The translations under genes were made by a program, and so were the position numbers. DNA of 64,000 nucleotides from a virus. Taxonomy: Duplodnaviria > Heunggongvirae > Uroviricota > Caudoviricetes. Where the stretch lies: the IMG/VR virus record IMGVR_UViG_3300028920_000902, positions 12,298 to 76,297 of that record. The stretch is one strand, 5' to 3'. The notes below the pieces were generated by a model, which saw only the letters and a program-made list of their open reading frames with translations, made no database searches and had not been told where the DNA came from. The first letter of the stretch is position 1; each line of letters starts with the position of its first letter. Below, one piece after another: positions 40,960 through 64,000 of the stretch.

Positions 40960-41090
40960 TGCCGCTTACGAAGAAGGGCAAAAAGGTCAAGAAGTCGATG
41001 CAGAAGCAGTACGGCTCCAAGAAGGGCATGGAGGTTTTCTACGCATCGGTGAATAAGGGGAAGGTCAAAGGGGCACACAAGACCAAATGA
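40959..41090 (+). CDS. small basic protein 3 (43 aa)
   Basis: TAATG coupling; MPLTKKGKKVKKSMQKQYGSKKGMEVFYASVNKGKVKGAHKTK. Its stop overlaps the next ATG. Confidence 0.35.
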   Translation: MPLTKKGKKVKKSMQKQYGSKKGMEVFYASVNKGKVKGAHKTK

Positions 41091-41719
41091 AGCCTCGGTG
41101 GGACTACATCTTCCGGGTGGTGTGCTCCGGGTTTAATTTCTGGCCCATGAAGTGGTTTTTCTGCTTTGGAACCATGTTGTCCATTGTGCGGTCAGACATG
41201 CGGGTAGCGCAGGGCAAAGAGCCGAAATTCCCGAAGAAGTGCGACGATGTGGATGTGGGCGTTTTCTACGACGAGTTTCAGCCTATTTACATCACCAATT
41301 TTTGCAAGAGCAATGGGTGGGTGGTGGACAACCGCATTGTCTCAGACACAACCGGCAAGACCCTCTACATGGGCCTGAAGCCCAGAGAAGATGTTGCAGA
41401 CATGATGGGCAATGTCCATGTGGACATTTTTTGCTGGGTGAAGCATGATGGGTACTATTGGCACACGTATGATGTGGATATGAAGCGTCCCAAGAATGGG
41501 AAACTCAAGCGCTATACGTTCAAGGGTGTGCCAGCGTGGGCGATAGATGGCGGCGTTGTGGAGCGGGTGAACATTGGCGGGTCGCATCATTGTGGGTTTA
41601 TCCCGCTGAAGTATGGCACATTGCTTGACCTGTGGTATCCAGATTGGTTGGTGCCGCGAGAGTGCGTGAGCGAGGGAGAGGTTCGGGTGGTGAAATCCTG
41701 TAAGGAAATCGGCCTGTAA
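41087..41719 (+). CDS. LicD-family (fukutin-like) phosphotransferase
   Basis: FGTMLSIVRSDM and CDDVDVGVF correspond to the LicD GTLLGxxR / DDDxD motifs. Confidence 0.55.
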   Translation: MKPRWDYIFRVVCSGFNFWPMKWFFCFGTMLSIVRSDMRVAQGKEPKFPKKCDDVDVGVFYDEFQPIYITNFCKSNGWVVDNRIVSDTTGKTLYMGLKPREDVADMMGNVHVDIFCWVKHDGYYWHTYDVDMKRPKNGKLKRYTFKGVPAWAIDGGVVERVNIGGSHHCGFIPLKYGTLLDLWYPDWLVPRECVSEGEVRVVKSCKEIGL

Positions 41720-41736
41720 AATCTTACGGAGATGGC

Positions 41737-42582
41737 ATGAAAGCCTGCGTATCCACGGTGGTTACTGCTGACCATTTTCAGCACTACATTCCCTTGTTTT
41801 GCTATTCTCTCCAGCGGGCCGTCAAATGTGATGTTAAGATTTTCCTTCGCGGGAAACTTGACCACATTACGCGGGTGGCTCTCTGTGAGGCGGACTTGTA
41901 TCCGCTCATACTCCAAGACACCTTCCCCGGCTTCCCAAATTACACGTCCACGACAAACGCGCTGCGGTTCCTTCCGGGGCCGCGTGAATACATGCAGTAC
42001 GAGTGGGTCTATCACACCGATGTAGACTTTGTGTTCCTGCCCCACGAGCCAGATTTCCTTACCTACTATGCACGCAAGGCCGATGCGTGGGGGGAGGATT
42101 ACTGGTCGCGCAGGGGGCCAAAGCGGGCGTCTGGGACAGATGAGCGGGCCAAGAGGATAGCTGGTGGGTGTATGATGACCCGTGTACCTGATTGGTATGT
42201 GAAGACCCAGGAACTGCGCACAGAGATGCTTGAGAAGGTCAGGGTGGGGGAAATAGGCAGATACCGCGAGGATGATGAGCGGATGCTGTGGGACATCTGT
42301 GCCGGTGCAGGGATGAAGTGTCCCACCAAGAGGGGGAACAGGCGCCACAAGAAGTACAAGGAAATTCATCTTGGTGATTTCAAGTTTGACGGTCGGTGGG
42401 GGTCAAACCGCAAGATGGCTCGGCGGATTTCTGCCGGGAATTTCCAGAAGTGGTTTCGGCTGGAGGAAGACCCAATGTGGAAGCACCTGTGTTCAATAGT
42501 TGAACAGGACAAGGAAATCAAGACGATACTGGACAATGTTAGGGAGTACATGGACGGGCGCAGGGACAGAAGTAGATCATAG
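41737..42582 (+). CDS. putative nucleotide-sugar glycosyltransferase (GT-A-like)
   Basis: HTDVDFVF DxD-like motif; sits in the glycan island. Confidence 0.4.
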   Translation: MKACVSTVVTADHFQHYIPLFCYSLQRAVKCDVKIFLRGKLDHITRVALCEADLYPLILQDTFPGFPNYTSTTNALRFLPGPREYMQYEWVYHTDVDFVFLPHEPDFLTYYARKADAWGEDYWSRRGPKRASGTDERAKRIAGGCMMTRVPDWYVKTQELRTEMLEKVRVGEIGRYREDDERMLWDICAGAGMKCPTKRGNRRHKKYKEIHLGDFKFDGRWGSNRKMARRISAGNFQKWFRLEEDPMWKHLCSIVEQDKEIKTILDNVREYMDGRRDRSRS

Positions 42583-42592
42583 CACTAGTTGT
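42568..42592 (+). promoter_or_regulatory. conserved 25-nt motif AGAAGTAGATCATAGCACTAGTTGT, copy 3
   Basis: Identical to the reverse complement of 23957-23981; ~55 nt upstream of the methyltransferase start. Confidence 0.45.
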
Positions 42593-42645
42593 ATGCAATA
42601 CCGGGGCAACCAATTTATAAGCGCGCGCGGGAAAAGACAAAGGCA

Positions 42646-43503
42646 ATGAAGATAGCATACCAGACAAAAGACGTGACGTTGTGGCATGGCGACTGCCGGG
42701 AAGTAATGGCAGACATGGCCGCTGATTCCGTCGCGTTACTCTGGACAGATCCGCCATACGGACACGGGAACAACGACGGAGACCTTGCCGCTGCTCGCGT
42801 TGGGGTGGCCGGAGCACGGCAGCGCCCGGTAGAGGCGATAGCCAATGACGGTGCCGACGACATGCGGAATGTAGTTGACGGCATGCTTGTGCAGGCCGCA
42901 AGAGTGCTTATGCGCGACTGCTGCTGCTGCTGCTGCTGCGGCGGCGGCGGCCCGCGTCCCACGTTCGCATGGGTGGCGCAACGCATGGATACTTGCGGTC
43001 TGGTGTTTTTCCATTCCGTGATTTGGGACAAGACGGCACGCGGCCCTGGCATGGGGTGGCGCTATCGGCGCGACCACGAAATGCTGATGATTGCGCATCG
43101 CGCTGGTGGTCGGTTGCGGTGGTCTGACCCGGATACCGCAGTGTCAAATATTGTGCGCACAATGCCCCCGCGTGACAGGGAACATCCAAACGAGAAACCC
43201 CTTGCGCTTGTTCGTCAATTTGTCGGTTTGCACAGTATGCGCGGAGACACAGTTCTCGATCCGTTTTGTGGTAGTGGCACTACGCTTATAGCCGCACTGG
43301 ACACGGGGCGCAAGGCAATCGGAATTGAAGTAGATGAGCGATGGATTGATGTGGCAGTCAAGCGGTTGGAACGCTGGCATGCACAGACAAACCTTTTCAG
43401 ACAAGACGAAGACGCGCGCGCCGGACATGGGGAGTGCCCCGGCACAGCGTGCAACAGCGCAAGCCCAAAGGCTACGCAGGTCACTATGGAATTGGGATTA
43501 TAG
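42646..43503 (+). CDS. DNA N6-adenine/N4-cytosine methyltransferase (beta class) with internal poly-Cys/Gly run
   Basis: TDPPYG (motif IV), then HPNEKP, then DPFCGSGTT (motif I), the order typical of beta-class enzymes. CCCCCCCGGGG insertion. Confidence 0.8.
   Translation: MKIAYQTKDVTLWHGDCREVMADMAADSVALLWTDPPYGHGNNDGDLAAARVGVAGARQRPVEAIANDGADDMRNVVDGMLVQAARVLMRDCCCCCCCGGGGPRPTFAWVAQRMDTCGLVFFHSVIWDKTARGPGMGWRYRRDHEMLMIAHRAGGRLRWSDPDTAVSNIVRTMPPRDREHPNEKPLALVRQFVGLHSMRGDTVLDPFCGSGTTLIAALDTGRKAIGIEVDERWIDVAVKRLERWHAQTNLFRQDEDARAGHGECPGTACNSASPKATQVTMELGL
42919..42951 (+). repeat. trinucleotide simple sequence repeat (TGC)7(GGC)4 inside the methyltransferase gene
   Basis: Read directly from the DNA; in-frame Cys7Gly4. 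Confidence 0.9.
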
Positions 43504-43545: not shown

Positions 43546-44250
43546 ATGATAACAGTTGATTGGATAGTGCCGGTTTGGCGCCCAGACAAATATCGACAGG
43601 CCAATCTTGTTCAACAAAGAACATGGATTGCGTCACAAAAAAGGCTGATAGTTAATTTCAAGCCCATGTATGATGATTCGGACGAATTTAACAAGCAGTG
43701 GCTGGTGAATCGAGGGTTTAGAGAGTCTACGGCGGGGTGGGTGTTTGTTGCTGATATGGATGTGATTGGGGAGGGAACAGAATATGTGTGGGATGTAACA
43801 CAATGGCTGAAGCAGAACAATCTCCAATGGGGCTTTGGTTGGAACCGGCTGGTCTACAGGGGAAAGGATGGCGGGAAGGACAGGGACGATTGGCCCAATC
43901 CCGGTGTTCAGGAGGGCGGGGTGGTCGTGTTTGGGCGCAGTCTGTGGAAGGAGATGGGTGGGGCCAACGAGTGGATACGGGAACTGTCTGGCCCGGACAA
44001 TGATTTGGCTCTGCGGGCGCGGTATGTGTCGGGCACATATTCATCGTATCCGCGCACTCTGACTCACCAATGGCACCCACGCTCAGAGATGAAGCGTGCC
44101 AAGTGGCTCAAAAACAATCAGTCAATCTTGAAATATACCAACAAGTTTCCGTGGCGGGTGGTGAAGCTGCTCAAGATGCAGCCGTGGGGCGGCGCCGAAC
44201 CATATTGCGACAAGAGCTTCTATGAAACTAGGACAAACGCCCACCTTTGA
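43546..44250 (+). CDS. putative glycosyltransferase (GT2-like)
   Basis: DNDLALRARYVSG resembles a GT2 C-terminal motif. Confidence 0.4.
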   Translation: MITVDWIVPVWRPDKYRQANLVQQRTWIASQKRLIVNFKPMYDDSDEFNKQWLVNRGFRESTAGWVFVADMDVIGEGTEYVWDVTQWLKQNNLQWGFGWNRLVYRGKDGGKDRDDWPNPGVQEGGVVVFGRSLWKEMGGANEWIRELSGPDNDLALRARYVSGTYSSYPRTLTHQWHPRSEMKRAKWLKNNQSILKYTNKFPWRVVKLLKMQPWGGAEPYCDKSFYETRTNAHL

Positions 44251-44935
44251 GCATTATCTCCTCACACGGTGGAATTTGGGAATCTATTCAAGGGCACAGA
44301 AGACCGTTGGGGGCGGCCGGATTGACCCCGAACAATGGATGGTGTCACGATTCCGGCTCTGGGAGAAATACTGTGTTCCGTCTGTTTTTAATCAGACCTG
44401 CCAGAACTTTACATGGCTTGTGGTTTTTGATCCGGCAACACCACGGCATTACGTTGAACGAGCAACGGCCATTTTGCACCCCAAACACGAGATTCTGTTT
44501 GCCAACAATTTCAGGCAGGGGATTAAAGTGCGGATTGGAAAGCCGACGGTTGACCGGCTCATCACCTCGCGGTTGGATAACGATGATGCGCTCCATGTTG
44601 ATTACATCAAGAAAATCCAAGAGCGGTTTCTTAGGCGCACTAAAACGGGTCTTTATGTGTTTCCGACAGGGTGGATTTGGAATCCCAGGAAGAGGAAGCT
44701 CTACCATTGTCGGTATCTCAGGAACCCGTTTCTGACATTGGTGGAGAAGCCGCAAACGAAGGTGCATACGGTTTTGGCGCACAGACATACGAAAATTGGG
44801 GAGATGTTTAAGGTACATCGGCTGGAGGGTGGGCATCGGTGGGTGCAGATAATCCACGGGGAGAACTTGGCGAACTACTGCCACGGTGACAGGGTGGATG
44901 AAAAGTTGCTGGTGGAGGGGGAGTATTGGGGATGA
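44222..44935 (+). CDS. putative glycosyltransferase (LTRWN-type N-terminus, rhamnosyltransferase-like)
   Basis: HYLLTRWNLGIY N-terminal motif; DNDD motif. Confidence 0.4.
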   Translation: MKLGQTPTFEHYLLTRWNLGIYSRAQKTVGGGRIDPEQWMVSRFRLWEKYCVPSVFNQTCQNFTWLVVFDPATPRHYVERATAILHPKHEILFANNFRQGIKVRIGKPTVDRLITSRLDNDDALHVDYIKKIQERFLRRTKTGLYVFPTGWIWNPRKRKLYHCRYLRNPFLTLVEKPQTKVHTVLAHRHTKIGEMFKVHRLEGGHRWVQIIHGENLANYCHGDRVDEKLLVEGEYWG

Positions 44936-45627
44936 TACTTGCCAAGAAGGCGAATGCTGAGTTTGGGTGGTTTCTGATGCGCTGGCAGGGGCATTTGCGG
45001 TATTTGTCACAGAAGCACAAGGTAAAAGTGGAGTGCGAGGATTGGCAGCGGTATTTGGTGAGTGATTTTGAGTATACGGGTGAGCCAGAGGATGAGGTGA
45101 CAGAGGTACACTATACCAAGCGGCTGCAAAGAAAAAAGCACCTGAAGCAGGAGTTCATACGCTATGGGGTGCTTGGTTCTCATCCGGGGTACGATGTTGT
45201 GATACACGCCCGGAATTTGAACAAGGGCGTTCATCGAAATTGGCCGGACGAGAAGTGGCAGGAGCTGGTGAAGGAGCTGAATGGATACCAGATTGCTTTT
45301 GTGGGCACATACGATGGGGCGCGGTGTTGGGGCGGGGACAAGCGCGGGGTGCCGCTGGAAGAGCTGTGTAACATCATGTGTAATTCTGACTTGTTTATTG
45401 CAGAGTCTAGCGGCCCGGCACACTTGGCAAGCCTGTGTGGGTTGAACCACTTGGTGATTACGGATCGGCGAAGGTGGCGGGTGGGGTGGAAAAAGTCGCG
45501 CAATTGGAACCGTTACGTCCGTGATTGGAACCCCTTGGGCACTCCGGCATATGTGCTGGATCAGGATGACTACAATCCGCCCGTGGCGAAGGTGCTGCGG
45601 GCAATCGAGAAGAACGGGTTACTGTGA
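44926..45627 (+). CDS. glycosyltransferase family 9-like (heptosyltransferase-like)
   Basis: RNWPDEKWQELVKEL and AESSGPAHLASLCG match GT9 C-terminal motifs. Confidence 0.55.
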   Translation: MGMILAKKANAEFGWFLMRWQGHLRYLSQKHKVKVECEDWQRYLVSDFEYTGEPEDEVTEVHYTKRLQRKKHLKQEFIRYGVLGSHPGYDVVIHARNLNKGVHRNWPDEKWQELVKELNGYQIAFVGTYDGARCWGGDKRGVPLEELCNIMCNSDLFIAESSGPAHLASLCGLNHLVITDRRRWRVGWKKSRNWNRYVRDWNPLGTPAYVLDQDDYNPPVAKVLRAIEKNGLL

Positions 45628-45733: not shown

Positions 45734-46492
45734 GTGATCAAAATAGCCAATATGTCACCGGAAGATATTGCACACATTGTGCCCCCAAACACAATTTTAC
45801 TTGGGTATATGGGTTCAATATCACACGGTACACAGATTGTTGGCCCTGACTCGATAGACGACAAGGACATCATGGGGTGTGCGGTTGGGCCGATTGAGTG
45901 CTATTATGGGCTCAAGAAGTTTGAGCAGCGGGAGTGTAAGCGTGGTGTGTGGGACTCGGTTATCTACGAGTTGCGAAAGTATGTGTGTTTGTTGCTCAAG
46001 CAGAACCCAAACGTTCTGGGGTTGCTCTGGCTCCAGCGCAAGGACTACATACACATTTCCCCCGCAGGCCAGCGCCTTATTGATAACCGTACCCTTTTTG
46101 TGTCGAAAAAGGCATATCACAGCTTTGTGGGATACGCCCACGGGCAGTTACATCGTATGACACATGGTGCATATCAGGGATATATGGGGCAGAAGCGCAA
46201 GCAGTTGGTTGATAGGCATGGGTATGACACGAAGAACGCGGCACACCTTGTGCGTCTTCTCAGAATGGGCATTGAGTATTTAGTGGAGGGTGAGTTGCAT
46301 GTGTTTCGTGAAGATGCCCCAGAGCTTAAGGCCATTAAGCGTGGCGAGTGGACTCTTGAGCGCGTACAGCGTGAAGCTGACAGGCTATTTGAGTTGGCGC
46401 GAGAGGCGCATGTGAGATCATCATTGCCATCAGGGCCAGATTATGGTGGCGCGGAGAAGCTTCTTGTGTCAATTCTTAGGGACACCTTGTGA
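45734..46492 (+). CDS. nucleotidyltransferase-fold (Pol beta-like) protein
   Basis: GSISHGTQIVGPDSIDDKD resembles the hG[GS]...DxD minimal nucleotidyltransferase motif. Confidence 0.45.
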   Translation: MIKIANMSPEDIAHIVPPNTILLGYMGSISHGTQIVGPDSIDDKDIMGCAVGPIECYYGLKKFEQRECKRGVWDSVIYELRKYVCLLLKQNPNVLGLLWLQRKDYIHISPAGQRLIDNRTLFVSKKAYHSFVGYAHGQLHRMTHGAYQGYMGQKRKQLVDRHGYDTKNAAHLVRLLRMGIEYLVEGELHVFREDAPELKAIKRGEWTLERVQREADRLFELAREAHVRSSLPSGPDYGGAEKLLVSILRDTL

Positions 46493-47418
46493 ACATTTAC
46501 TTCCACGCCTCGGGGCCCAAGTCTGGTTTAGACAACAATGGCGGCTCCCGCACCATCCTCAAGTCTGCCGAGGTGCTGCGGGAACTAGGTCACCATGTAG
46601 ACGTTGTGGCGTCCTATGATGCTTTCACATGGTTCTCTCACCCCAAGCCAATCAAGCAGGTGCCAGAGGGTGATGGTGTGGTCGTAGCTGTCAGTGCACG
46701 GGATGTGAAGAATGCCGTCAAATATGCTCGGGGAAAGCCGGTTTATTGGTGGATACGTGGCAAGGAACTGTGGCAGATGCCCGAGGAGAAGTTGATTCAG
46801 CGGGCGAAGTGGGTGAATTGCATAGTGAACGCCGAACACTTGCGGGATTGGCTCAAATCGCATGGTGTCAAGTCAAAACTGTGCTATGCCGGGATTGACG
46901 ATTTGTGGGAGCCAGAGGGTGATGACCTGTGGGACATGGCAGGGTTCAAGGCATCGGAAAATATACAAGATCCGATAGTTGTTGGGTGTCTGAAGAACAT
47001 GCATCACCCCACGAAGCGGTGGGATATGTGCCTCGATTTGTTGGGGCGGTTGGACGAGAAGCGGTTCAAGGTGATTCACACGGGTGCCCCGGACAAGACC
47101 GAAGAGCAGATGCGGGAAATATACCAAAAATGTGATATATGGTTTGCACCATCAGAACTGGAGGGCTTTCACAATGTACCGCTGGAAGCGGGTCTATGTG
47201 GGTGTTTGGTTGTGTGTCGGCGCAGCCCTCGTGGGGGTTGTCGGGACTACGCTACTGAAGAGACTGCACACCTCTTTGACACAATTGAGGAGGCGGTCGA
47301 AGCTATTCTCCGCCCTGACTTCCGTAAGATACCACGGTTTTTCCAATATGCGTGGCCGAAGATAGGGAGCAGACACTCCAACATGGAGAAGTTTGTGGGG
47401 ATATTGTGCCGAAAGTAA
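46489..47418 (+). CDS. GT4-type (GT-B) glycosyltransferase
   Basis: ELEGFHNVPLEAGLCGCLVV E-x7-E motif. Confidence 0.65.
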   Translation: MNIYFHASGPKSGLDNNGGSRTILKSAEVLRELGHHVDVVASYDAFTWFSHPKPIKQVPEGDGVVVAVSARDVKNAVKYARGKPVYWWIRGKELWQMPEEKLIQRAKWVNCIVNAEHLRDWLKSHGVKSKLCYAGIDDLWEPEGDDLWDMAGFKASENIQDPIVVGCLKNMHHPTKRWDMCLDLLGRLDEKRFKVIHTGAPDKTEEQMREIYQKCDIWFAPSELEGFHNVPLEAGLCGCLVVCRRSPRGGCRDYATEETAHLFDTIEEAVEAILRPDFRKIPRFFQYAWPKIGSRHSNMEKFVGILCRK

Positions 47419-56537: not shown

Positions 56538-56839
56538 GATTCCGGCTCGACGAAGAGGGGAATTTGCAACACACCATTGTTTGTTTGACTCCCCACTATG
56601 CCCATGCGGTTGCATATTATGCCGGAATGGACTGCTGGGTGTACCGAGATTGGCAGCAATCACGGGGGAAAGACCCCGACAAGAAGGCCGAAAAGTACAA
56701 TCTGTTGCTCAAGAGCTTGGCGAAAAAGGGGATGCGGCAGCCCATAGAGGTGCGGGATGATGAGATACAGCATGGACACCACCGGGCGGCGGCATGGTTG
56801 GCACTCGGCCACAGGGAGATAGAATGTCAGGAAGTATAA
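56510..56839 (+). CDS. ParB/sulfiredoxin-fold domain protein, paralog 2
   Basis: GMRQPIEVRDDEIQHGHHRAAAWLALGHREIE. Confidence 0.5.
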   Translation: MATRKIRELRFRLDEEGNLQHTIVCLTPHYAHAVAYYAGMDCWVYRDWQQSRGKDPDKKAEKYNLLLKSLAKKGMRQPIEVRDDEIQHGHHRAAAWLALGHREIECQEV

Positions 56840-58108: not shown

Positions 58109-58895
58109 TTTCACCAAACCCCGCCGGGAAAGTCGAATGCGGCATGTTGCCGAGCGGGAACATTTTGAGTATATACCCATATCAGACCCCCACAATGTTC
58201 CCGATGGGGATTACTATCTTGTGCCGTCAAGCTGGTGGTACAAGGGAAAAGACAAGGGGGCTATAGAATGTGCAAACTCATTCCGTGGCCGGGTGGTAAT
58301 GGTGGATTACGCCAAGGAAATGGAGCAGAAGAGGAAGAACAAGGGCGGGCTGAGGGCGGATTATATTGCGATGATGGACAATGCTTCGCCGAATTCCGTA
58401 CCCGTGATTCCGTTTGCCGTGCCCTGTTTCGACCCCTCGCCTCGGTTCCGCCGCGACCCGCAGAAGGGGCGGGTGCTGGTGACGATGGAGGGCCCAACGG
58501 GGAAGGTGGTCGCCTCGTTGGTTGAGCGGCTGCGCGACAGGCACATCATATGGAAGATGCGGAGCAAGTTTCTCGACAGGCTGGAATACTATGCGGAAGT
58601 TCTGAGTGGTACGCGGCACAAAATTGTGTACTCGGAGGACAAGGACTACAATTGGGCACAGCCGCTGGTTGAGCAATGTGCCCAGTTTGTTGAGGAACAT
58701 GTAAACATAAAACAGTTGTCTTATCCAAACCAAGAGATGATACGGTATGGTGTGCCCACCTCTATATGGGATGGGAAGCGTTTTGTTGGACACGAGAGAA
58801 TAGAGAGAACCAAAAGGTTTTATGAGGGCAAACCGAGGGACTACTGTACTCGAAATTTGGTGAGGTTTTTGCGTGAGAATCTGCCTGATAATTGA
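58095..58895 (+). CDS. hypothetical protein in glycan island (266 aa)
   Basis: GTG start; no family recognised. Confidence 0.4.
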   Translation: MRIVDFTKPRRESRMRHVAEREHFEYIPISDPHNVPDGDYYLVPSSWWYKGKDKGAIECANSFRGRVVMVDYAKEMEQKRKNKGGLRADYIAMMDNASPNSVPVIPFAVPCFDPSPRFRRDPQKGRVLVTMEGPTGKVVASLVERLRDRHIIWKMRSKFLDRLEYYAEVLSGTRHKIVYSEDKDYNWAQPLVEQCAQFVEEHVNIKQLSYPNQEMIRYGVPTSIWDGKRFVGHERIERTKRFYEGKPRDYCTRNLVRFLRENLPDN

Positions 58896-59775
58896 CAAGT
58901 GGGGCTGGGCCTATGACCGCATAGCTCAGGGGCTTATCAAATTCAATAAGTCAGAACACGAGTTTGAGGTCTTTGCAGCGAAGACGGACGCGAAGAAAAT
59001 CAAGCGGTCGAAGGCTGACAGATTCCTCGTGATGGGTTATCAATATTGGGACAAGGTGGACTTTCTGCCCAAGGACAGAACCTTCGTTGGGGTACACGGG
59101 CACCATCAGTGGGACGGACACAAGACCACCCCGACCGAGGACGTGCTTCCGCCGAATGATCTTCACGAGTTTCTTTCCACTTTCCGGGGGGTGAATGTTG
59201 TCTCAGAACGATTGCACAGACTGTTTCCATACGCATCCTATACCCCAAACGGAGTCGATGTGGGGCTGTTTCGGCGCGAGCGTGTGCCGTGCCATTATTC
59301 TGGTGGTGGCAAGATGAAGATCGGTTGTGCGTATAACCCCAAACATGATTGGCGTAAGGGTGTCAAAGAGTTTGTTGAACCAGCGTTAAATATGGAGTAT
59401 GGTAGTGATGGGTATGATGATGACTGGATGGACAATGACGAGTATGAGCTTTGTTTGGCTCCAAGAAATCTAGCACTGTATGAAATGCCGGCATGGTATA
59501 ACACGATTGATATATATGTGTGTGCGTCATCCAGCGAAGGGCTTAGCCTTTCAGTCTTAGAGGCGCTGGCCTGTGGGAGAGGCATTGTTTCTACGATACC
59601 AAACGAAATAGAGGCACAAGACGTTGTGGCCAGAACCGTGCCGGACATTCGAGAGGGAATTGAGTGTTGCCTTGAGTATCCCAAACCAGAATCTGACAGA
59701 GCAATTCAAGAAGCCAAGGAGAGGTGGTCATGGGAGAAGAGATGCGGAGAATGGACAAGGTTCTTGGAGGGATGA
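58873..59775 (+). CDS. GT4-type (GT-B) glycosyltransferase
   Basis: SSSEGLSLSVLEALACGRGIVST. Confidence 0.65.
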   Translation: MRICLIIDKWGWAYDRIAQGLIKFNKSEHEFEVFAAKTDAKKIKRSKADRFLVMGYQYWDKVDFLPKDRTFVGVHGHHQWDGHKTTPTEDVLPPNDLHEFLSTFRGVNVVSERLHRLFPYASYTPNGVDVGLFRRERVPCHYSGGGKMKIGCAYNPKHDWRKGVKEFVEPALNMEYGSDGYDDDWMDNDEYELCLAPRNLALYEMPAWYNTIDIYVCASSSEGLSLSVLEALACGRGIVSTIPNEIEAQDVVARTVPDIREGIECCLEYPKPESDRAIQEAKERWSWEKRCGEWTRFLEG

Positions 59776-60339
59776 ATGGCACTATTTAAGCATTTCTTTA
59801 AGAACCGTGATGGTCTGTCGTTTGTACAAATTGGCGCAAATGATGGGGTGGACTTTGTTCGTGAGCGCGTGTTGACCTTCGGGTGGCGTGGGGTTTTCGT
59901 TGAGCCGATTCCACACATATTTAAACGGCTGAAAGAAACCTATCGGGGAGTTGGGGGGCTGGCGTTTGAGAATGTTGCTATTGCCGAGTCCGCCGGAACC
60001 AAGGACTTTCATGTGTGTGATGGACACGAGGTGTGTAGTGGCCTTGAGATTGTTCATCCCAAGGTAAGTCGTCATCCGTTTCACACTATTCGGGTTAAGT
60101 GCATTACAATTTCCCAGTTGTTTGAGCGTTACGGCATAGAGCGCCTTGATGTGTTGGTAATTGACACCGAGGGGTATGATGGCAAGATAATCAAGAGCAT
60201 GGATTTCAACGTAAGACCCAAGGTGCTGATATATGAAAGCAAGGATCTGCCTGATAATGATGAGGTGAGGGCGCTGCTTAAGGGGCAGGGGTACAAATTT
60301 CGTCCATTCAGTAACAACACGGTGGCATATCTAAAATGA
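59776..60339 (+). CDS. FkbM-family methyltransferase (second copy)
   Basis: FVQIGANDG...VFVEP...LDVLVIDTEGYD. Confidence 0.65.
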   Translation: MALFKHFFKNRDGLSFVQIGANDGVDFVRERVLTFGWRGVFVEPIPHIFKRLKETYRGVGGLAFENVAIAESAGTKDFHVCDGHEVCSGLEIVHPKVSRHPFHTIRVKCITISQLFERYGIERLDVLVIDTEGYDGKIIKSMDFNVRPKVLIYESKDLPDNDEVRALLKGQGYKFRPFSNNTVAYLK

Positions 60340-60965
60340 AAACATTGGCAATATATGGGTGTGGGTATAGTCTGAACGAATTGTCTGATGAGCAGTGGGA
60401 TGAGCTTCGTCAGTTTGATTCTATTGGTGTGAACTGGTTTGTGTTTCAGCGGTGGATCGAGCCTACTTACATGCTGGTTGGAGACATTCGGCACGACAGG
60501 AAGATAGCCAAGTTGGGACATACGCTTGAAGAAGCATTTGAGATATACGTCAAAGAGGCTTCTGCGCCGTGCTACAAGAACACAATTTTTGTGGCACGAG
60601 ATTATCAAATGCCGATGCTTGGAAACCTGAGAATGTGTGAATATGTCCCAGATCGGGAGTGGAGGGCATCTAGCATAACCCAATGTCTTCATTGGGCGGT
60701 CAAAAATGGATATGAGCGAGCATTGGTTGCTGGAGTGGACTTGTATGACTATCGTTTTTTCTTCTTGGAACACGAACAAGTCAGGAACTATGGGTTGGTT
60801 GGGGGCGGTTGGGCAAAGAGAAAAATTCACGGTCGCCATCAGGCATATAACAAAATGAAGAAGTGGTTTAAGAGTGGGGTGTGCAAGATTCCGATTTACT
60901 GCTACAATCCCAAGTCACTCATGTTTGATTTTCCGGGGACAAAATCATGGTTGCAGCAATCCTGA
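60336..60965 (+). CDS. CstII/Maf-like nonulosonic-acid transferase, paralog 2
   Basis: AIYGCGYSL and SSITQCLHWAVKNGYERALVAGVDLYDY. Confidence 0.5.
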   Translation: MKTLAIYGCGYSLNELSDEQWDELRQFDSIGVNWFVFQRWIEPTYMLVGDIRHDRKIAKLGHTLEEAFEIYVKEASAPCYKNTIFVARDYQMPMLGNLRMCEYVPDREWRASSITQCLHWAVKNGYERALVAGVDLYDYRFFFLEHEQVRNYGLVGGGWAKRKIHGRHQAYNKMKKWFKSGVCKIPIYCYNPKSLMFDFPGTKSWLQQS

Positions 60966-61618
60966 TTGGTCGCAAGGGGTCGAAGGGGTTTCCCGGCAAG
61001 AACACCCATGTGGTCTGCGGTAGGCCAATGTGTGAGTGGCCTCTGCTTGCGGCTCAGAAGATGGTGGACAAGATATACTACTCCACCGACGATGAAGATG
61101 TACACGAGATTGCAAAAGCCTATGGGGAGAGGTTGCATCGCCCCCCGGAACTGGCAACTGATGAGGCTCTGGGCGAGGATGTATACCAGCATTGTGCGGC
61201 GCGAGTGGTTGAGCCAATACTGGTGTTGTTGATGGCCAACGCCCCGACAGTTGCAGATTTCCACATTGCTGACGGGTTGCGGGCACTTCAGGATGGATAT
61301 GCCTCAGCTTGTACGGTGTCGAAGTACAACATGTTTCACCCAACAAGAGCAAGGGTGCGCGGGGAAAGCCTGTGGCATTACCATCATGGCGGCGCGAGTT
61401 GTGATCGTAATTCTGCCGGTGATGCTTGGTTCTATGATTGTGGGTGTGCTGTGGTGAGAAGGGAGAACATGAGTATGCTTCACAGTGGGCTTCCCCCACA
61501 GCGGTGGCTCCATGTGCCGTGCTATGGCATTGAGAACGAGGCGGGGATAGACGTGGATTACGAATGGCAACTTGGGCAGGTTGAGTGGTGGCTGAGGAGG
61601 TATGCAAAATGCGCGTAG
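60947..61618 (+). CDS. cytidylyltransferase, CMP-nonulosonic acid/CMP-KDO synthetase family (second copy)
   Basis: AAILIGRKGSKGFPGKN N-terminal motif. Confidence 0.75.
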   Translation: MVAAILIGRKGSKGFPGKNTHVVCGRPMCEWPLLAAQKMVDKIYYSTDDEDVHEIAKAYGERLHRPPELATDEALGEDVYQHCAARVVEPILVLLMANAPTVADFHIADGLRALQDGYASACTVSKYNMFHPTRARVRGESLWHYHHGGASCDRNSAGDAWFYDCGCAVVRRENMSMLHSGLPPQRWLHVPCYGIENEAGIDVDYEWQLGQVEWWLRRYAKCA

Positions 61619-62946
61619 TTCTCATTTCTCCACAATACCGAATACTGCATTCTCCAGTAAGTGATTTGTCCAAGAATGTTCATAGGAGGGCGCAGCCCAA
61701 TTTGGCGCTTGCCATACTTGCCACTACCCTGAATCGTGCGGGGTATGAGGTTTTGTATTTGGACAGCGTAATTGAGGGCATTGATCAAACCATTCGCTTC
61801 GATGAGGAAACAGACTATTATGGACTGATGCCAGACGGTATCCGGCGCCGGGTGGAAGAATTCAGTCCAGACTTGATTGCCATTACTTGTCTGACAACCA
61901 GCCAATACCCCCTTGTACGGGCTGTGTATTTTGAATTGCTTTCGCTTGGTATTCCCATTATCATTGGGGGAAACCATGCCAGCCTCAATGCTCGTGATGT
62001 CAGGGAGCTTGGGTTTCATTCCGTTGTGTGCGGGGAGGCGGATCAGAAGATTCTGGAGGTTGTTGACCGACTGAACAGTTTGCCCGACATTGTTCACCTT
62101 GGGCGGTTAGACGATTTGGACAAAAGCCCCCAGATAGATTGGTCACTTTTGCCAATGGAAAAGTATTGGACAAAAGCTCTTCCCCAAAATCCATTTCCCA
62201 AGAGTCGAAAGACCATCCTCTATGAGACATCGCGGGGCTGCCCGGAACATTGTGTTTTCTGTTCTACGGCGAACCACTTCGGCCACAAGTTTCGTCCGAA
62301 ATCGGCACGGCGCGTGGTGCAAGATATTACGGAGGCGGTTCGCACTACGGGGATTGAGGAGGTGCAGTTTTGTGATGACAGCATGGGGGTAAATCGCACT
62401 CGGTTCATGGACATATGCGAGGGGCTAAAGCCTCTTGGCATACATCTGTGCAACCCTTCTGGAATCAGGTTCTACATAAAGAAAGAGTCTGAGCTGCGAG
62501 AAACATTTGCCACGATGCGGGATGCGGGGTTTTACCAGATGACATTTGCTGTTGAAAGCGGCAACGAATATATCCTCAATACGGTAATCAAGAAGCGCCT
62601 TGATCTTGAATGGACACGGAAAGCGATAGGCGTTGCAAAAGACTACTTCAAAGTACACGCATTTTTCATCATTGGATTGCCGGGGGAAACCGAAGAGCAA
62701 ATCAACGATACCTTGCGCTACGCGAAAGATATCAAGGTGGACAGCTATTCGCTGTCGCTGGCGCAACCGTTTCCATCCACAGAGCTGTGGAGGATTTGCC
62801 GTCGCGGGGGGTGGATGGTTCCGGGCACCAAAGAGTCAGACATGTTGTTGGGAAAACAGGTGATTCGCAGGGACGATGGTTTGGACTTGGTATCTATCGC
62901 GGAGGACGCTCTTGAACGACTGGCTGGTAATAGCAACAGGCCCTAG
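61609..62946 (+). CDS. B12-binding-domain radical SAM enzyme
   Basis: CPEHCVFC (CxxxCxxC) radical SAM cluster motif after an N-terminal B12-binding-like Rossmann region. Confidence 0.8.
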   Translation: MRVVLISPQYRILHSPVSDLSKNVHRRAQPNLALAILATTLNRAGYEVLYLDSVIEGIDQTIRFDEETDYYGLMPDGIRRRVEEFSPDLIAITCLTTSQYPLVRAVYFELLSLGIPIIIGGNHASLNARDVRELGFHSVVCGEADQKILEVVDRLNSLPDIVHLGRLDDLDKSPQIDWSLLPMEKYWTKALPQNPFPKSRKTILYETSRGCPEHCVFCSTANHFGHKFRPKSARRVVQDITEAVRTTGIEEVQFCDDSMGVNRTRFMDICEGLKPLGIHLCNPSGIRFYIKKESELRETFATMRDAGFYQMTFAVESGNEYILNTVIKKRLDLEWTRKAIGVAKDYFKVHAFFIIGLPGETEEQINDTLRYAKDIKVDSYSLSLAQPFPSTELWRICRRGGWMVPGTKESDMLLGKQVIRRDDGLDLVSIAEDALERLAGNSNRP

Positions 62947-63460
62947 TGTTGGGGCTTATGCTGACGTAATTCGTGCTTTTGCAGATGGGAAAACCACCAT
63001 AGGTGTACACCACTTGGCGGGACGTTTTGTTCCCGACTATCACCTGTTTGTTTCAAAGAAGCGATACAAAAAGTACGGTAAGTATGTGAATCCCAAAAGC
63101 ACCCTGGTTTTGACCAGCAAGATGGGTGGCCATTTTGATGTGGAGAACGAGTATCCATCTTCTGTGGGGTCGATTGAATTTTTTGACGGCCGCGTAGTAA
63201 GCAGGGGGGCGTCCGGTGGGGTGCTGGCTGCTGCATATGCAATCATGTTGGGGGCGCAGCGGGTGTTTATCGCCGGAATGGACGGATATAGTGATGGGGC
63301 AGGTCACCATTACAAGGAGAAAGACAATTCTTGGAGTCGGCTCATGGAACACGAGGCTGCGACGCCAATGATTCTCAGGGATTTGAATAAGATTGTGCCG
63401 GTGACAATTATTACGCCGACAGTATACCAAGAATACTACGTGGGATTTGAACACAATTAA
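62912..63460 (+). CDS. CstII/Maf-like nonulosonic-acid transferase, paralog 3
   Basis: LVIATGPSV and SGGVLAAAYAIMLGAQRVFIAGMDGY; probable TTG start 5 nt after GGAGGA. Confidence 0.5.
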   Translation: MNDWLVIATGPSVGAYADVIRAFADGKTTIGVHHLAGRFVPDYHLFVSKKRYKKYGKYVNPKSTLVLTSKMGGHFDVENEYPSSVGSIEFFDGRVVSRGASGGVLAAAYAIMLGAQRVFIAGMDGYSDGAGHHYKEKDNSWSRLMEHEAATPMILRDLNKIVPVTIITPTVYQEYYVGFEHN

Positions 63461-63474
63461 CCAGGGGTGAACAG

Positions 63475-64000
63475 ATGAATGTGTACTGCAACACGGCCAT
63501 GTGTGAGATTGAAAGCAACTGTGAGAAACAGGATGCGGTGATGCTTCTTCAGGGGGCACGGAAGGTGGACTTGGACGAGTTTCCCAGCCTGAAGTACATG
63601 TACCGTGCCGGGATTGGAAGCGAGAACCTACCCCTTGAACAGATTGCCGAACGGGGGGTAAGGGTATGGTTCCCCCCAATGGGGGTAAGAGAAGAGATAT
63701 CAAAGGCCGTGGCAGAGTTGACGGTGGCCTTTATCATGCACGCAGCCACGTTGGACAAGTCAGACTTGGGTGAGTGGCACCGCTACAAGCGGGGCAGTTT
63801 GGTGGACAAGAAGATTCTGGTGATTGGAAATGGGCACATTGGCTCCAAGGTGGAGGCCATGCTGCCGTCTCGAACAATGGTGTATGACATCAAAAGCTCC
63901 ATGCCTAACGAGCTTGAGAAGTTTGCACGGGCAGCAGACATTGTGACCATTCACATACCGGCCAAGTGTATCAATCTTGGTACATCTGTGGCGTACAATC
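63475..64000 (+). CDS. D-isomer-specific 2-hydroxyacid dehydrogenase family protein (3' partial, runs off window)
   Basis: ILVIGNGHIGSKV NAD-binding GxGxxG motif; no stop before the window end. Confidence 0.7.
   Translation, partial: MNVYCNTAMCEIESNCEKQDAVMLLQGARKVDLDEFPSLKYMYRAGIGSENLPLEQIAERGVRVWFPPMGVREEISKAVAELTVAFIMHAATLDKSDLGEWHRYKRGSLVDKKILVIGNGHIGSKVEAMLPSRTMVYDIKSSMPNELEKFARAADIVTIHIPAKCINLGTSVAYN

What the first reader, a model, noticed from the sequence alone, without database searches (positions are those of the whole stretch)
41087..64000. ~23 kb phage-borne glycan biosynthesis/transfer island including a sialic-acid-type (nonulosonic acid) pathway
One uninterrupted + strand operon-like run directly after terL encodes a LicD-like protein, at least 12 glycosyltransferases of several families (GT2, GT4, GT9, GT47-like, CgeB-like, CstII/Maf-like) and two FkbM methyltransferases. 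It also encodes NeuB-like and two NeuA-like enzymes, a B12-radical-SAM enzyme, a nucleotidyltransferase and a 2-hydroxyacid dehydrogenase. A viral genome carrying its own nonulosonate synthase, two CMP-activating enzymes and three candidate transferases is rare. Upstream steps (NeuC/PseB/PseC-type) are not visible in this window, implying dependence on host precursors or genes beyond the window.
Basis: partly seen in the sequence, partly recalled or inferred. Interest (0 to 1): 0.85.

Follow-up and report, generated by a model that had tools for sequence, protein, structure and literature searches.

The report
Phage-encoded sugar-coating gene island
A 76-kb uncultivated tailed phage gives a third of its genome to 33 soluble sugar-building enzymes, including a sialic-acid-type branch, wedged between its DNA-packaging and portal genes; they most likely put a complex sugar coat on the virus particle, on a scale I found in no described phage.

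Summary
Joining the window to two fetched stretches of an identical public contig closes a circular 76,170-bp genome. The island spans 41087-65883: 33 same-strand, mostly overlapping genes, 32.6% of the genome. It lies between the large terminase and a P22-type portal, so it is phage DNA, not host.

Confirmed at family level:
- a NeuB-family synthase, two CTP_transf_3 cytidylyltransferases, seven glycosyltransferases above Pfam cut-offs, two FkbM methyltransferases, a B12 radical-SAM enzyme and a 2-hydroxyacid dehydrogenase;
- g11, which models as a Maf/CstI sialyltransferase fold;
- g30, whose relatives fall in the MptE-like (Maf) and CST-I families;
- g15, a GT-B fold protein.

A third Maf-like call (g27) and the LicD, GT9 and GT47 calls are weak or unproven. 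A DNA methyltransferase and three small ParB/sulfiredoxin-like proteins were missed.

No protein has a membrane segment. No recognisable NeuC/PseB/PseC-type gene exists anywhere in the genome.

A collinear core recurs in uncultivated phage contigs of 65-188 kb, with variable accessory genes.

Best reading: cytoplasmic glycosylation, most likely of the phage's own virion proteins (inferred). Remodelling of host surface glycans is the main rival.

The parts
37875..40199 (+). Large terminase (TerL), upstream boundary of the island
   Evidence: tblastn hits 148 phage records annotated as terminase large subunit, best E 2e-49. PHROG terL ATPase part E 1.3e-8. PDB 8dkr large terminase E 1.5e-6.
40079..40549 (+). 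Small GNAT acetyltransferase ORF. The true start is probably after the terL stop. It may be the first gene of the island.
   Evidence: Pfam Acetyltransf_7, 27.9 bits against a cut-off of 27, residues 59-131.
41087..41719 (+). g01, LicD-like (tentative). Paralog of g33, which closes the island.
   Evidence: 26.6% identity to g33, E 5e-5. g33 has a sub-threshold LicD hit, 18.2 bits. Shared FGT(L/M)L and DDxDV motifs. No Pfam, NCBIfam or PHROG hit of its own.
41737..42582 (+). g02, unknown function, conserved in a related island
   Evidence: 47% identity to an ORF in L020. No family hit.
42589..43503 (+). g03, N6/N4 DNA methyltransferase with an internal (TGC)7(GGC)4 repeat. Not a glycan enzyme.
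   Evidence: Pfam N6_N4_Mtase 91.2 bits. Repeat read.
43546..44250 (+). g04, unknown function, conserved in related islands
   Evidence: 47% and 43% identity in L004 and L020. No family hit.
44222..44935 (+). g05, GT-A type glycosyltransferase (Rhamno_transf family)
   Evidence: Pfam PF11316, 85.7 bits.
44926..45627 (+). g06, possible GT9-like protein (weak)
   Evidence: Pfam Glyco_transf_9, 20.3 bits against a cut-off of 22. Conserved in L004 and L020.
45734..46492 (+). g07, RlaP-type (polymerase-beta fold) nucleotidyltransferase
   Evidence: Pfam RlaP 48.1 bits. A DnaB helicase sits at the corresponding place in L004.
46489..47418 (+). g08, GT4 (GT-B) glycosyltransferase, core gene
   Evidence: Pfam Glyco_trans_1_4 37 bits. 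Homologs in L004, L019, L020, L021.
47352..48116 (+). g09, GT2 (GT-A) glycosyltransferase, core gene
   Evidence: Pfam Glycos_transf_2 99.6 bits. Homologs in all related islands.
48110..49012 (+). g10, GT4 glycosyltransferase, core gene
   Evidence: Pfam Glycos_transf_1 47.1 bits. Homologs in all related islands.
49009..49674 (+). g11, Maf/GT42 (CstI-type sialyltransferase) fold transferase, core gene
49656..50210 (+). g12, small ParB/sulfiredoxin-like protein (tentative), partner of g11
   Evidence: Family profile hits sulfiredoxin 6ky4, E 0.0038, over the GxHR motif. Fused to the g11 homolog in L020 ORF 8920-9990.
50176..51048 (+). g13, NeuB-family nonulosonic acid synthase, 290 aa, no C-terminal SAF domain
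   Evidence: Pfam NeuB 210 bits. TIGR03569 NeuB 180.7 bits exceeds TIGR03586 PseI 116.5; both are below cut-off. PDB SpsE, NeuB and PseI hits with conserved KFQ, SxH and ExHF motifs.
51038..51700 (+). g14, CMP-sugar-acid synthetase (CTP_transf_3)
   Evidence: Pfam 78.7 bits. Best NCBIfam match is PseF over its full length, 89.6 bits against a cut-off of 205.7.
51681..52604 (+). g15, GT-B fold enzyme, core gene. Either a transferase or a NeuC/PseG-like nucleotide-sugar hydrolase.
52585..54311 (+). g16 (52585-53463) and g17 (53415-54311), paralogs of unknown function
   Evidence: 42.6% identity, E 5e-72. Weak similarity to g22, E 0.004. g17 is absent from L005, L007 and L012. No family or PDB hit.
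54308..55111 (+). g18, FkbM-type methyltransferase, core gene
   Evidence: Pfam Methyltransf_21 64.6 bits.
55048..55911 (+). g19, GT4 glycosyltransferase, core gene
   Evidence: Pfam Glyco_trans_1_4 46.4 bits.
55902..56537 (+). g20, probable GT-A protein with an invariant DDD motif (tentative), core gene
   Evidence: Family profile hits the chondroitin synthase GT-A domain, E 0.076, across the DDD motif.
56504..56839 (+). g21, small ParB/sulfiredoxin-like protein (tentative)
   Evidence: Aligns with g12 and g23 over the GxHR motif. Homolog next to a GT4 gene in L025.
56794..57705 (+). g22, Glyco_trans_1_2 (CgeB-like) glycosyltransferase
   Evidence: Pfam 37.4 bits.
57683..58108 (+). g23, small ParB/sulfiredoxin-like protein (tentative)
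   Evidence: BLASTP to g12, E 8e-5. Profile result.
58095..58895 (+). g24, unknown function
   Evidence: No family hit. Weak homolog in L021.
58873..59775 (+). g25, GT4 glycosyltransferase
   Evidence: Pfam Glyco_trans_1_4 33.5 bits.
59776..60339 (+). g26, FkbM-type methyltransferase
   Evidence: Pfam Methyltransf_21 68.1 bits.
60336..60965 (+). g27, possible third Maf/GT42-like transferase (motifs only)
   Evidence: N-terminal GCGYSL and GVDLYDY motifs. Profile comparison with the g11 family is not significant, and there is no PDB or Pfam hit.
60947..61618 (+). g28, second, divergent CTP_transf_3 cytidylyltransferase
   Evidence: Pfam 44.7 bits. 44% identity to the g14 N-terminal half.
61585..62946 (+). 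g29, B12-binding radical-SAM enzyme (methyltransferase class)
   Evidence: Pfam B12-binding 54.2 and Radical_SAM 64.6 bits. Best NCBIfam matches (Sden_1168 P-methyltransferase, HpnJ) are far below cut-off.
62876..63460 (+). g30, MptE-like/Maf/CST-I family transferase
   Evidence: 177 relatives. 30 of 45 match PF01973 and 3 match PF06002 CST-I.
63475..64000 (+). g31, D-2-hydroxyacid dehydrogenase, truncated by the window end. The full gene runs to 64281. It is followed by g32, a GT4 (64278-65216), and g33, LicD-like (65209-65883). Then come DUF7666 on the minus strand and the P22-type portal (66836-68944).
   Evidence: Precomputed Pfam 2-Hacid_dh_C and P22_portal. NCBIfam. Pfam. Coordinates.
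14220..16274 (+). Separate 684-aa GT2 + Methyltransf_24 fusion among the large virion-type genes, outside the island
   Evidence: Pfam Glycos_transf_2 48 bits and Methyltransf_24 56.6 bits.

Best explanation
The segment is the larger part of a 24.8-kb, 33-gene glycosylation island (41087-65883). It sits inside a complete, circularly assembling 76,170-bp tailed-phage genome, between the large terminase and the portal gene.

Shown:
- All 33 products lack membrane segments.
- They include at least 10-11 glycosyltransferases of GT-A, GT-B and Maf/GT42 folds.
- There is a nonulosonic-acid branch: a NeuB-family synthase, two CMP-forming cytidylyltransferases, and two supported plus one possible Maf/CstI-like transferases.
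- Tailoring enzymes are present: two FkbM methyltransferases, a B12 radical-SAM enzyme, a 2-hydroxyacid dehydrogenase, two LicD-like proteins, and perhaps a GNAT.
- Three small ParB/sulfiredoxin-like proteins each sit next to a transferase. One of them is fused to the Maf-like enzyme in a relative.

Inferred mechanism:
1. The enzymes work in the cytoplasm of the infected cell, probably expressed with the packaging and structural genes.
2. They draw on host nucleotide sugars and on a host hexosamine. Alternatively the GT-B protein g15 releases that hexosamine from a UDP-sugar.
3. NeuB condenses the hexosamine with phosphoenolpyruvate to give a nine-carbon acid sugar, and g14/g28 activate it with CTP.
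4. The Maf/CstI-like enzymes transfer it. The GT-A and GT-B enzymes build the rest of a methylated glycan directly on the acceptor, with no lipid carrier and no export step.
5. The most likely acceptor is the phage's own virion proteins, giving a variable glycan coat. This is analogous to capsid and tail glycosylation in mycobacteriophages and to Maf-dependent flagellin glycosylation in bacteria.
For: Phage origin and position: genome closure, terL, and the portal with virion genes downstream.

Enzyme identities.

No hydrophobic segment typical of a membrane helix in any island protein. There is therefore no flippase, polymerase, transporter or polyprenyl-phosphate priming transferase.

Tight same-strand packing, with 27 of 32 junctions overlapping or abutting. 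Composition like the rest of the genome.

A second GT2-methyltransferase fusion lies among the large virion-type genes.

No integrase or other lysogeny gene turned up among the proteins scanned.

A collinear core (g32, g08, g09, g10, g11, g15, g18, g12 copies, g20, a radical-SAM enzyme, g24, g19, g21, g25, g23, g30) recurs at 30-50% identity in uncultivated phage contigs of 65-188 kb. Accessory genes differ: a sulfotransferase, an epimerase, extra methyltransferases, and NeuB/NeuA present or not seen. A strain that is 98-100% identical at most genes lacks g17 and has diverged g14 and g19. This is the pattern expected of an exposed, diversifying glycan.

Precedents: Corndog-type mycobacteriophages carry an O-methyltransferase and three glycosyltransferase genes inside the virion operon (PMC4351075). 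Glycans on mycobacteriophage capsid and tail-tube subunits are reported as cited in PMC12619734. Cytoplasmic O-glycosylation of flagellins with pseudaminic or legionaminic acid is described in PMC7591256 and bioRxiv 10.1101/2022.03.25.485807.
Against: The acceptor is not shown by any result here.

GT2, GT4 and GT9-type enzymes without membrane helices also act on lipid-linked intermediates at the inner face of the membrane, so the lack of membrane segments does not exclude host surface glycans.

The g11 fold matches the lipooligosaccharide sialyltransferase CstI as well as the protein-glycosylating Maf.

Expression timing is inferred from position only. The promoter and terminator scan was uninformative.

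In relative L004 a DnaB helicase sits inside the island, so the link to structural genes is not universal.

I saw no Ser/Thr-rich C-terminal tail on the candidate capsid protein.

The identity of the nonulosonic acid is unresolved, and both equivalog cut-offs are missed.
Confidence: 0.5

Rival explanations
1. Host surface remodelling. The phage enzymes act at the inner face of the host membrane on lipid-linked LPS, capsule, S-layer or teichoic-acid intermediates, or on host flagellin or pilin. The host's own export machinery then displays the altered glycan. This could block superinfection by other phages or alter the cell during a prolonged or pseudolysogenic infection.
For: The families present (GT2, GT4, GT9-like, LicD-like, CstI-like, NeuB/NeuA) are the standard toolkit of LPS and capsule loci.

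Jumbo cyanophages carry polymorphic multi-glycosyltransferase clusters that have been interpreted in this way (PMC7824862).

Peripheral glycosyltransferases need no membrane helix. Variability between related phages also fits.
Against: The island has no priming transferase, flippase, polymerase or transporter.

Its position is between terL and the portal, next to late-type genes.

No lysogeny gene was found among the proteins scanned.

A third of a 76-kb genome is a heavy cost for exclusion in a cell about to lyse.

The core is conserved across phages of very different size. Their hosts, which are unknown, would have to offer the same acceptor.
Confidence: 0.3
2. DNA hypermodification. The transferases attach sugars to modified bases of the phage genome to evade restriction, as in T4 and in the recently described 5hmC-glycan gene clusters.
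For: A DNA methyltransferase sits in the island. ParB-like proteins, methyltransferases and terminase are reported neighbours of DNA-modifying glycosyltransferases (bioRxiv 10.1101/2023.12.21.572611). The core is conserved across diverse phages, and DNA is the one acceptor they all share.
Against: No 5-methylpyrimidine dioxygenase (TET-like) and no thymidylate-synthase-like hydroxymethylase was recognised among the genes scanned across the complete genome.

The methyltransferase is the N6/N4 type, not C5.

The DNA glycans reported in that preprint are mono- to trisaccharides made by one to a few enzymes, not about 15 transferases plus a nonulosonate branch.
Confidence: 0.06
3. The segment is host chromosome, or a chimeric assembly joining a phage to a bacterial polysaccharide locus.
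For: The gene content resembles bacterial polysaccharide loci. Most public copies are short contigs.
Against: The contig closes on itself with a 141-bp overlap, and the island has phage genes on both sides.

Two long contigs (50-200 kb class) carry the island gene used for the look-up.

GC content and skew match the rest of the genome.

No relative of g11 exists in 185,579 species-representative bacterial and archaeal genomes.

Collinear islands occur on other phage-sized and IMG/VR contigs.
Confidence: 0.02

Closest known systems
Virion glycosylation genes of mycobacteriophages (Corndog gp35-38 and Che8-type; PMC4351075; Freeman et al. 2023 as cited in PMC12619734)
   Same: Glycosyltransferase and O-methyltransferase genes are embedded in the virion structure and assembly operon of a tailed phage. 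The enzymes are soluble. The proposed or demonstrated acceptor is capsid and tail protein.
   Different: Those systems have 2-4 genes and no sugar-synthesis branch. This one has 33 genes, a nonulosonate synthase and activation branch, Maf/CstI-like transferases, a radical-SAM enzyme, LicD-like and ParB/Srx-like proteins, and occupies 32.6% of the genome. Glycosylation of this phage's virion is not demonstrated.
Bacterial flagellin O-glycosylation islands (Maf or FlmG transferases with pseudaminic or legionaminic acid pathways; PMC7591256; PDB 5mu5)
   Same: A NeuB-family synthase, a CMP-synthetase and a Maf-fold transferase act in the cytoplasm on a structural protein before assembly. Gene content is variable, with methyl and acyl tailoring.
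   Different: The phage proteins are about 200 aa, catalytic domain only, against about 600 aa for Maf. g11 and g27 miss the Pfam models. The PseB/C/H/G or LegB/C/H/G steps are absent. There are many additional GT-A and GT-B enzymes. No flagellin is involved.
Campylobacter CstI/CstII (GT42) lipooligosaccharide sialyltransferases with NeuBCA
   Different: There is no sequence-level membership for g11 and no recognisable NeuC. The acceptor there is a lipid-anchored oligosaccharide.
Capsule/LPS modification clusters of jumbo cyanophages (PMC7824862)
   Same: Several glycosyltransferase families sit in one phage cluster that is polymorphic between related phages.
   Different: Those occur in genomes above 200 kb, include sugar kinases and nucleotidyltransferases, and are interpreted as host O-antigen remodelling. 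No nonulosonate branch or Maf-like enzymes are mentioned in that paper.
Phage DNA sugar-hypermodification clusters (bioRxiv 10.1101/2023.12.21.572611)
   Same: Glycosyltransferases lie near a methyltransferase, ParB-like proteins and terminase.
   Different: The defining 5mYOX or ThyS enzyme is absent. The methyltransferase is N6/N4 type. There are far more transferases.
Other GenBank phages with a NeuB gene (uncultured 484-kb phage LR756508; Marine virus AG-345-L05 MH319754)
   Same: They carry a short NeuB-family ORF (299 and 272 aa, against 290 aa here).
   Different: Identity is only 28-31%. None of the other island families lies within 15 kb, apart from one distant cytidylyltransferase.

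Membership tests
NeuB family (PF03102), nonulosonic acid synthases | Full-length match to the NeuB catalytic (TIM-barrel) domain above the gathering score | tested here: met
   210 bits against a cut-off of 22.1, residues 33-273 on profile positions 2-241 of 241.
NeuB family (PF03102), nonulosonic acid synthases | Conserved substrate and metal-binding motifs (KFQ, KIxS, SxH, ExHF, DH) | tested here: met
   Seen aligned to SpsE 1vli and NeuB 6ncs in the residue-level alignments. Read by eye, not scored.
N-acetylneuraminate synthase proper (TIGR03569) or pseudaminate synthase (TIGR03586) | Score above the equivalog cut-off | tested here: not met
   180.7 bits against 399.65 for NeuB; 116.5 against 340.25 for PseI. 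The product sugar is therefore unassigned.
Canonical two-domain NeuB | C-terminal SAF (antifreeze-like) domain | tested here: not met
   The protein ends at residue 290 with only the NeuB domain hit. A solved 290-aa NeuB (6ncs) shows that short forms exist.
CMP-sugar-acid synthetases (CTP_transf_3, PF02348) | Domain match above the gathering score | tested here: met
   g14 78.7 bits; g28 44.7 bits; cut-off 22.6.
PseF, NeuA or KdsB equivalogs | Equivalog cut-off | tested here: not met
   Best match is PseF, at 89.6 and 54.9 bits against 205.7. KdsB models score lower.
Maf / GT42 / MptE-like superfamily (PF01973, PF06002) | Sequence match to the Pfam models | tested here: not met
   g11, g27 and g30 themselves give no Pfam hit at E 0.01.
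Maf / GT42 / MptE-like superfamily (PF01973, PF06002) | Fold, or transitive homology to family members | tested here: met
Complete nonulosonate pathway (NeuC-NeuB-NeuA, or PseBCHGIF / LegBCHGIF) | Dedicated enzymes that make the six-carbon precursor | tested here: not met
   None is recognised among the genes scanned across the closed genome. The g15 GT-B fold is compatible with a NeuC/PseG-like hydrolase but is not assigned.
Self-contained surface-polysaccharide locus (Wzx/Wzy or ABC type) | Priming phosphoglycosyl transferase, flippase/polymerase or transporter (membrane proteins) | tested here: not met
   The highest 19-residue hydropathy values are 1.77 and 1.60, both in Rossmann-type strands. 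No membrane protein is present.
Phage virion-glycosylation system (mycobacteriophage type) | Glycosyltransferase genes inside the virion or packaging gene block | tested here: met
   The island lies between terL and the portal. A GT2-methyltransferase fusion lies among virion-type genes.
Phage virion-glycosylation system (mycobacteriophage type) | Glycans attached to capsid or tail proteins | not testable with these tools
   Needs virions.
Phage DNA sugar-hypermodification cluster | 5-methylpyrimidine dioxygenase, or ThyS-like hydroxymethylase, plus a C5 methyltransferase | tested here: not met
   No such Pfam hit among the genes scanned. The only methyltransferase acting on DNA is the N6/N4 type.
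LicD family (PF04991) | Domain match above the gathering score | tested here: inconclusive
   g33 scores 18.2 bits against 22.6. g01 has no hit. The shared GT(L/M)L and DDxDV motifs are consistent with LicD.
ParB/sulfiredoxin superfamily (g12, g21, g23) | Match over the GxHR nucleotide-binding core | tested here: inconclusive
   Family profile against sulfiredoxin 6ky4, E 0.0038; against Spo0J, E 1.7. Pfam ParB_N E 0.1 for 1 of 9 members.

The most novel reading that the evidence does not exclude
A clade of uncultivated tailed phages (65-188 kb) carries a conserved, collinear glycosylation assembly line of about 12-16 genes with lineage-specific add-ons. In this phage the add-on is a nonulosonic-acid branch. 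The system would build a complex, methylated, sialic-acid-like glycan coat on the virion through cytoplasmic, flagellin-style protein glycosylation. Small ParB/sulfiredoxin-like proteins would act as a previously unrecognised class of partner subunits for the transferases. If so, this is a viral 'glycocalyx' system comparable in scale to those of giant viruses, but in an ordinary-sized phage.
Probability: 0.35. Interest if true: 0.85.

Novelty: new variant of a known kind. Interest (0 to 1): 0.72.

Why it matters
Known phage glycosylation is small in scale: one to a few enzymes that glucosylate DNA, serotype-converting genes that alter the O-antigen, or 2-4 genes that decorate mycobacteriophage capsids.

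Here a 76-kb phage spends a third of its genome on a 33-gene sugar factory. It includes its own sialic-acid-type synthase, two activating enzymes and Maf/CstI-like transferases. A collinear core recurs in other uncultivated phages.

If the target is the virion, heavy glycan coats would not be confined to giant viruses and actinophages. They would become a factor in phage adsorption, stability, grazing and immune recognition, and in how viromes are interpreted.

The island also offers a compact, all-soluble set of enzymes for protein or glycan sialylation-like chemistry. It points to several families with no detectable sequence relatives of known function (g02, g04, g16/17, g24) and to a candidate new accessory protein class (g12, g21, g23).

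Tried and rejected
- Megablast of 24 kb against 50,697 phage records: no match.
- IMG/VR scans with terL and NeuB: only an identical 6.5-kb fragment for terL, nothing for NeuB.
- First contig look-up failed because of a wrong start codon on the radical-SAM gene.
- Pfam, NCBIfam and PHROGs gave nothing for 14 island proteins.
- Profile searches of solved-structure sequences gave nothing useful for the g11, g15, g16/17, g27 and LicD-pair families.
- hhalign of g11 against g27 and g30 was not significant, as single sequences and as profiles. I therefore do not claim that the three are paralogs.
- The AFDB50 fold library was unavailable. Foldseek on the PDB could not separate glycosyltransferase from epimerase/hydrolase for g15.
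- Promoter and terminator scan of the island was indistinguishable from shuffles.
- A scan of 185,579 species-representative genomes for g11 relatives found none, so there is no host clue.
- Cluster look-up gave no accession or name for relatives.
- A suspected sulfotransferase at 4797-5336 was not supported by Pfam.
- I considered and rejected host-chromosome or chimera origin and DNA hypermodification, for the reasons given under the rivals.
- I did not pursue host prediction, the capsid fold, or the full extent of the islands in L019-L022 beyond one extension.

Full report
OBSERVATION

The + strand of 41087-64000 carries an unbroken chain of 30 complete ORFs plus a truncated one at the window end. 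The chain is tightly packed: 27 of 32 junctions overlap or abut, and the largest internal gap is 106 bp.

- NeuB (50176-51048, 210 bits)
- two CTP_transf_3 cytidylyltransferases (51038-51700; 60947-61618)
- a GT2 (47352-48116)
- a Rhamno_transf GT-A (44222-44935)
- four GT4-type enzymes (46489, 48110, 55048, 58873)
- a CgeB-like Glyco_trans_1_2 (56794-57705)
- two FkbM methyltransferases (54308; 59776)
- a B12-binding radical-SAM enzyme (61585-62946)
- an RlaP nucleotidyltransferase (45734-46492)

The truncated last ORF is a D-2-hydroxyacid dehydrogenase.

Fourteen products had no hit in Pfam, NCBIfam or PHROGs.

- an N6/N4 DNA methyltransferase inside the run (42589-43503);
- three small related proteins (g12, g21, g23) whose family profile weakly matches sulfiredoxin/ParB over a GxHR motif (E 0.0038; Pfam ParB_N only E 0.1 for one member);
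- an 887-bp gap after terL that holds a small GNAT acetyltransferase ORF and three tiny basic ORFs.

IS IT PHAGE?

An exact-protein look-up placed the island on a 76,311-bp ENA contig that is identical to the window over the 14,225 bases compared. A second look-up, from the start of the window, landed on the end of the same contig. Joining the pieces gives a 76,170-bp circle. The 141-bp surplus equals the k-mer in the contig name.

In window coordinates the island ends at 65883. The genes beyond the window are:
- g31, the dehydrogenase, which runs to 64281;
- g32, a GT4 (weak by itself, but 35% identical to a Pfam-positive GT4 in L019);
- g33, a paralog of g01 with a sub-threshold LicD hit.

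Next come a minus-strand DUF7666 gene, a P22-type portal (66836-68944) and a block of virion-type genes that wraps round to the start of the window.

Upstream:
- The 774-aa protein at 37875-40199 is a large terminase. 148 phage records annotated as TerL match it, best E 2e-49. There are further PHROG and PDB hits.
- An Sf6-type small terminase lies at 30894-31529.
- A primase-helicase lies at 24093-25865 on the minus strand.

GC content is 52.1% in the island and 53.4% elsewhere, with the same GC skew.

The island is 24,797 bp, 32.6% of a complete phage genome. The lineage itself is new: there is no DNA match in GenBank phages, and only one distant portal hit.

THE NONULOSONATE BRANCH

g13 aligns over the whole NeuB catalytic domain, with the lysine, serine and histidine motifs visible against SpsE, NeuB and PseI structures. 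It scores higher on the NeuB model (180.7 bits) than on the PseI model (116.5), but far below both equivalog cut-offs. It lacks the C-terminal SAF domain, as does a solved 290-aa NeuB (6ncs). I therefore call it a nonulosonic acid synthase of unassigned product.

g14 matches PseF end to end but below cut-off. g28 is a divergent second copy.

g11 has no sequence hit anywhere, but an AlphaFold model built on six homologs (pTM 0.80) matches three structures best:

g30 has 177 relatives among 1.84 billion representatives. Of the 45 I scanned, 30 match PF01973 (MptE-like, the Maf domain) and 3 match PF06002 CST-I.

g27 shares only the N-terminal GxGxSL and the GxDxY motifs. Profile comparisons were not significant.

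So two Maf/CstI-like transferases are supported and a third is possible.

No NeuC, PseB/C/H/G or LegB/C/H/G gene is recognisable among the genes scanned across the closed genome.

RARITY

Only 3 of 50,697 GenBank phage records encode a NeuB relative. One of the three looks like a bacterial contig. The two phage neighbourhoods share no other island family, apart from one distant cytidylyltransferase.

g11 has six homologs among 5.8 billion proteins and none in 185,579 species-representative genomes.

RELATIVES

Metagenomic contigs with g11 or g15 homologs keep the gene order.

Across contigs of 65, 73, 105 and 188 kb, at 30-50% identity, a collinear core recurs: g32, g08, g09, g10, g11, g15, g18, copies of g12, g20, a radical-SAM enzyme, g24, g19, g21, g25, g23 and a g30-like gene.

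Accessory genes differ between contigs:
- a sulfotransferase and many class-I methyltransferases in L019;
- an epimerase, GT8, GT25 and GT47-like genes in L020;
- NeuB and NeuA present in L004, L005 and L020, but not seen in the fetched parts of L019 and L021.

A strain that is 98-100% identical at most genes (L007) lacks g17 and has g14 at 74% and g19 at 68% identity.

In L020 the g11 and g12 homologs are fused into one 357-aa ORF. L019 has five tandem g12-like genes. In L025 the g21-like and g23-like genes again sit next to GT4 genes. This links the small ParB/Srx-like proteins functionally to the transferases.

HOW IT MOST LIKELY WORKS

Shown:
- It is an all-soluble enzyme set with no membrane segment. 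It therefore has no priming transferase, flippase, polymerase or exporter.
- It sits in the packaging and structural part of a genome in which no lysogeny gene was found among the proteins scanned.

Inferred:
1. The enzymes act in the cytoplasm, probably late in infection.
2. They use host nucleotide sugars and a host-derived (or g15-derived) hexosamine.
3. NeuB and the cytidylyltransferases make a CMP-nonulosonate.
4. The Maf/CstI-like enzymes transfer it.
5. The GT-A and GT-B enzymes, FkbM and radical-SAM methyltransferases, dehydrogenase and LicD-like proteins build and tailor the rest.

I favour the phage's own virion proteins as acceptor (confidence about 0.5 for the whole statement), for four reasons:
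- the position of the island;
- the extra GT2-methyltransferase fusion among virion genes;
- the O-antigen-like variability between relatives;
- two precedents: mycobacteriophage virion glycosylation (PMC4351075; Freeman et al. as cited in PMC12619734) and cytoplasmic flagellin glycosylation with pseudaminic or legionaminic acid (PMC7591256; bioRxiv 10.1101/2022.03.25.485807).

RIVALS

Host surface remodelling is the main rival (about 0.3). The same families build LPS and capsules. Peripheral transferases need no membrane helix. CstI is as good a structural match as Maf. Jumbo cyanophage clusters have been read this way (PMC7824862).

DNA hypermodification is unlikely (about 0.06). The defining dioxygenase or hydroxymethylase is absent and the methyltransferase is of the wrong type (bioRxiv 10.1101/2023.12.21.572611).

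Host-chromosome or chimera origin is contradicted by the genome closure.

NOVELTY AND SCORE

Phage-encoded glycosylation is a known kind. This is a new variant in three respects:
- scale: 33 genes, a third of a 76-kb genome;
- content: a nonulosonate branch with Maf/CstI-like transferases, and ParB/Srx-like partner proteins;
- a conserved core across an undescribed group of phages.

My literature searches found no description of such a system.

The limits are plain: there is no isolate, the host is unknown, and the acceptor and the sugar identity are unproven. Interest 0.72.

Noticed in passing
window 7096-12369 (+): A 1757-aa protein among the virion-type genes carries a GGDEF (diguanylate-cyclase/palm) domain at residues 482-629 (Pfam 50.3 bits). 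Its only PHROG matches are families of unknown function.
   Followed up: no
window 14220-16274 (+): A 684-aa fusion of a GT2 glycosyltransferase and a Methyltransf_24 domain sits among the large virion-type genes, 25 kb from the island.
   Followed up: partly
window 42589-43503 (+), repeat near 42915-42950: The N6/N4 DNA methyltransferase contains an in-frame (TGC)7(GGC)4 trinucleotide repeat. It encodes a run of cysteines and glycines inside the catalytic domain and may vary in length.
   Followed up: no
window 40550-41086 (+): Three tiny ORFs of about 38-43 codons encode very basic Lys/Arg-rich peptides, between the GNAT ORF and the first island gene (sequence). Their function is unknown.
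   Followed up: no
window 24012, 30745 and (beyond the window) 66435; variant at 29750: The 13-mer GCAACCACAAGAT, preceded by a GTTGC element that forms an inverted repeat with it, recurs in intergenic DNA. Sites include upstream of the small terminase gene and upstream of the portal gene. A second shared element, GTTGCGCAGTG, lies at 28029, 29769 and 30770. These are candidate phage promoter or operator sites. Neither occurs at the start of the island.
   Followed up: partly
window 4797-5336 (+): A 179-aa ORF among the structural genes has a GAPRSGTSW loop resembling the PAPS-binding loop of sulfotransferases, but no Pfam hit. Relative L019 has a Pfam-positive sulfotransferase in its island.
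   Followed up: partly
window 27375-28007 (-) and 65880-66389 (-), the latter beyond the window: Two DUF7666 paralogs. One lies in the early region. The other is the only minus-strand gene between the island and the portal.
   Followed up: no
L007 (Ga0272443_10005229) against window 45.7-59.8 kb: This strain is 98-100% identical at most genes. It lacks g17 and has g14 at 74%, g19 at 68% and g18 at 92% identity. That suggests recent recombination inside the island.
   Followed up: partly
L020 8920-9990; L019 12577-14979: In L020 the Maf-like and ParB/Srx-like proteins are fused into one 357-aa ORF. L019 has five tandem ParB/Srx-like genes of 155-162 aa.
   Followed up: partly
window 23388-23924 (-), 34503-34964 (+), 36661-37197 (+), 20310-20810 (+): A Rad52-type annealing protein, an AP2-domain protein, an SPFH/Band-7 protein and a DUF1353 protein lie in the non-structural part of the genome.
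   Followed up: no
g30 relatives (P0048, P0053, P0055 and others): 14 of 45 scanned relatives of g30 are proteins of about 570 aa with an N-terminal HMGL-like (aldolase) domain fused to the MptE-like domain. I could not place this architecture.
   Followed up: no
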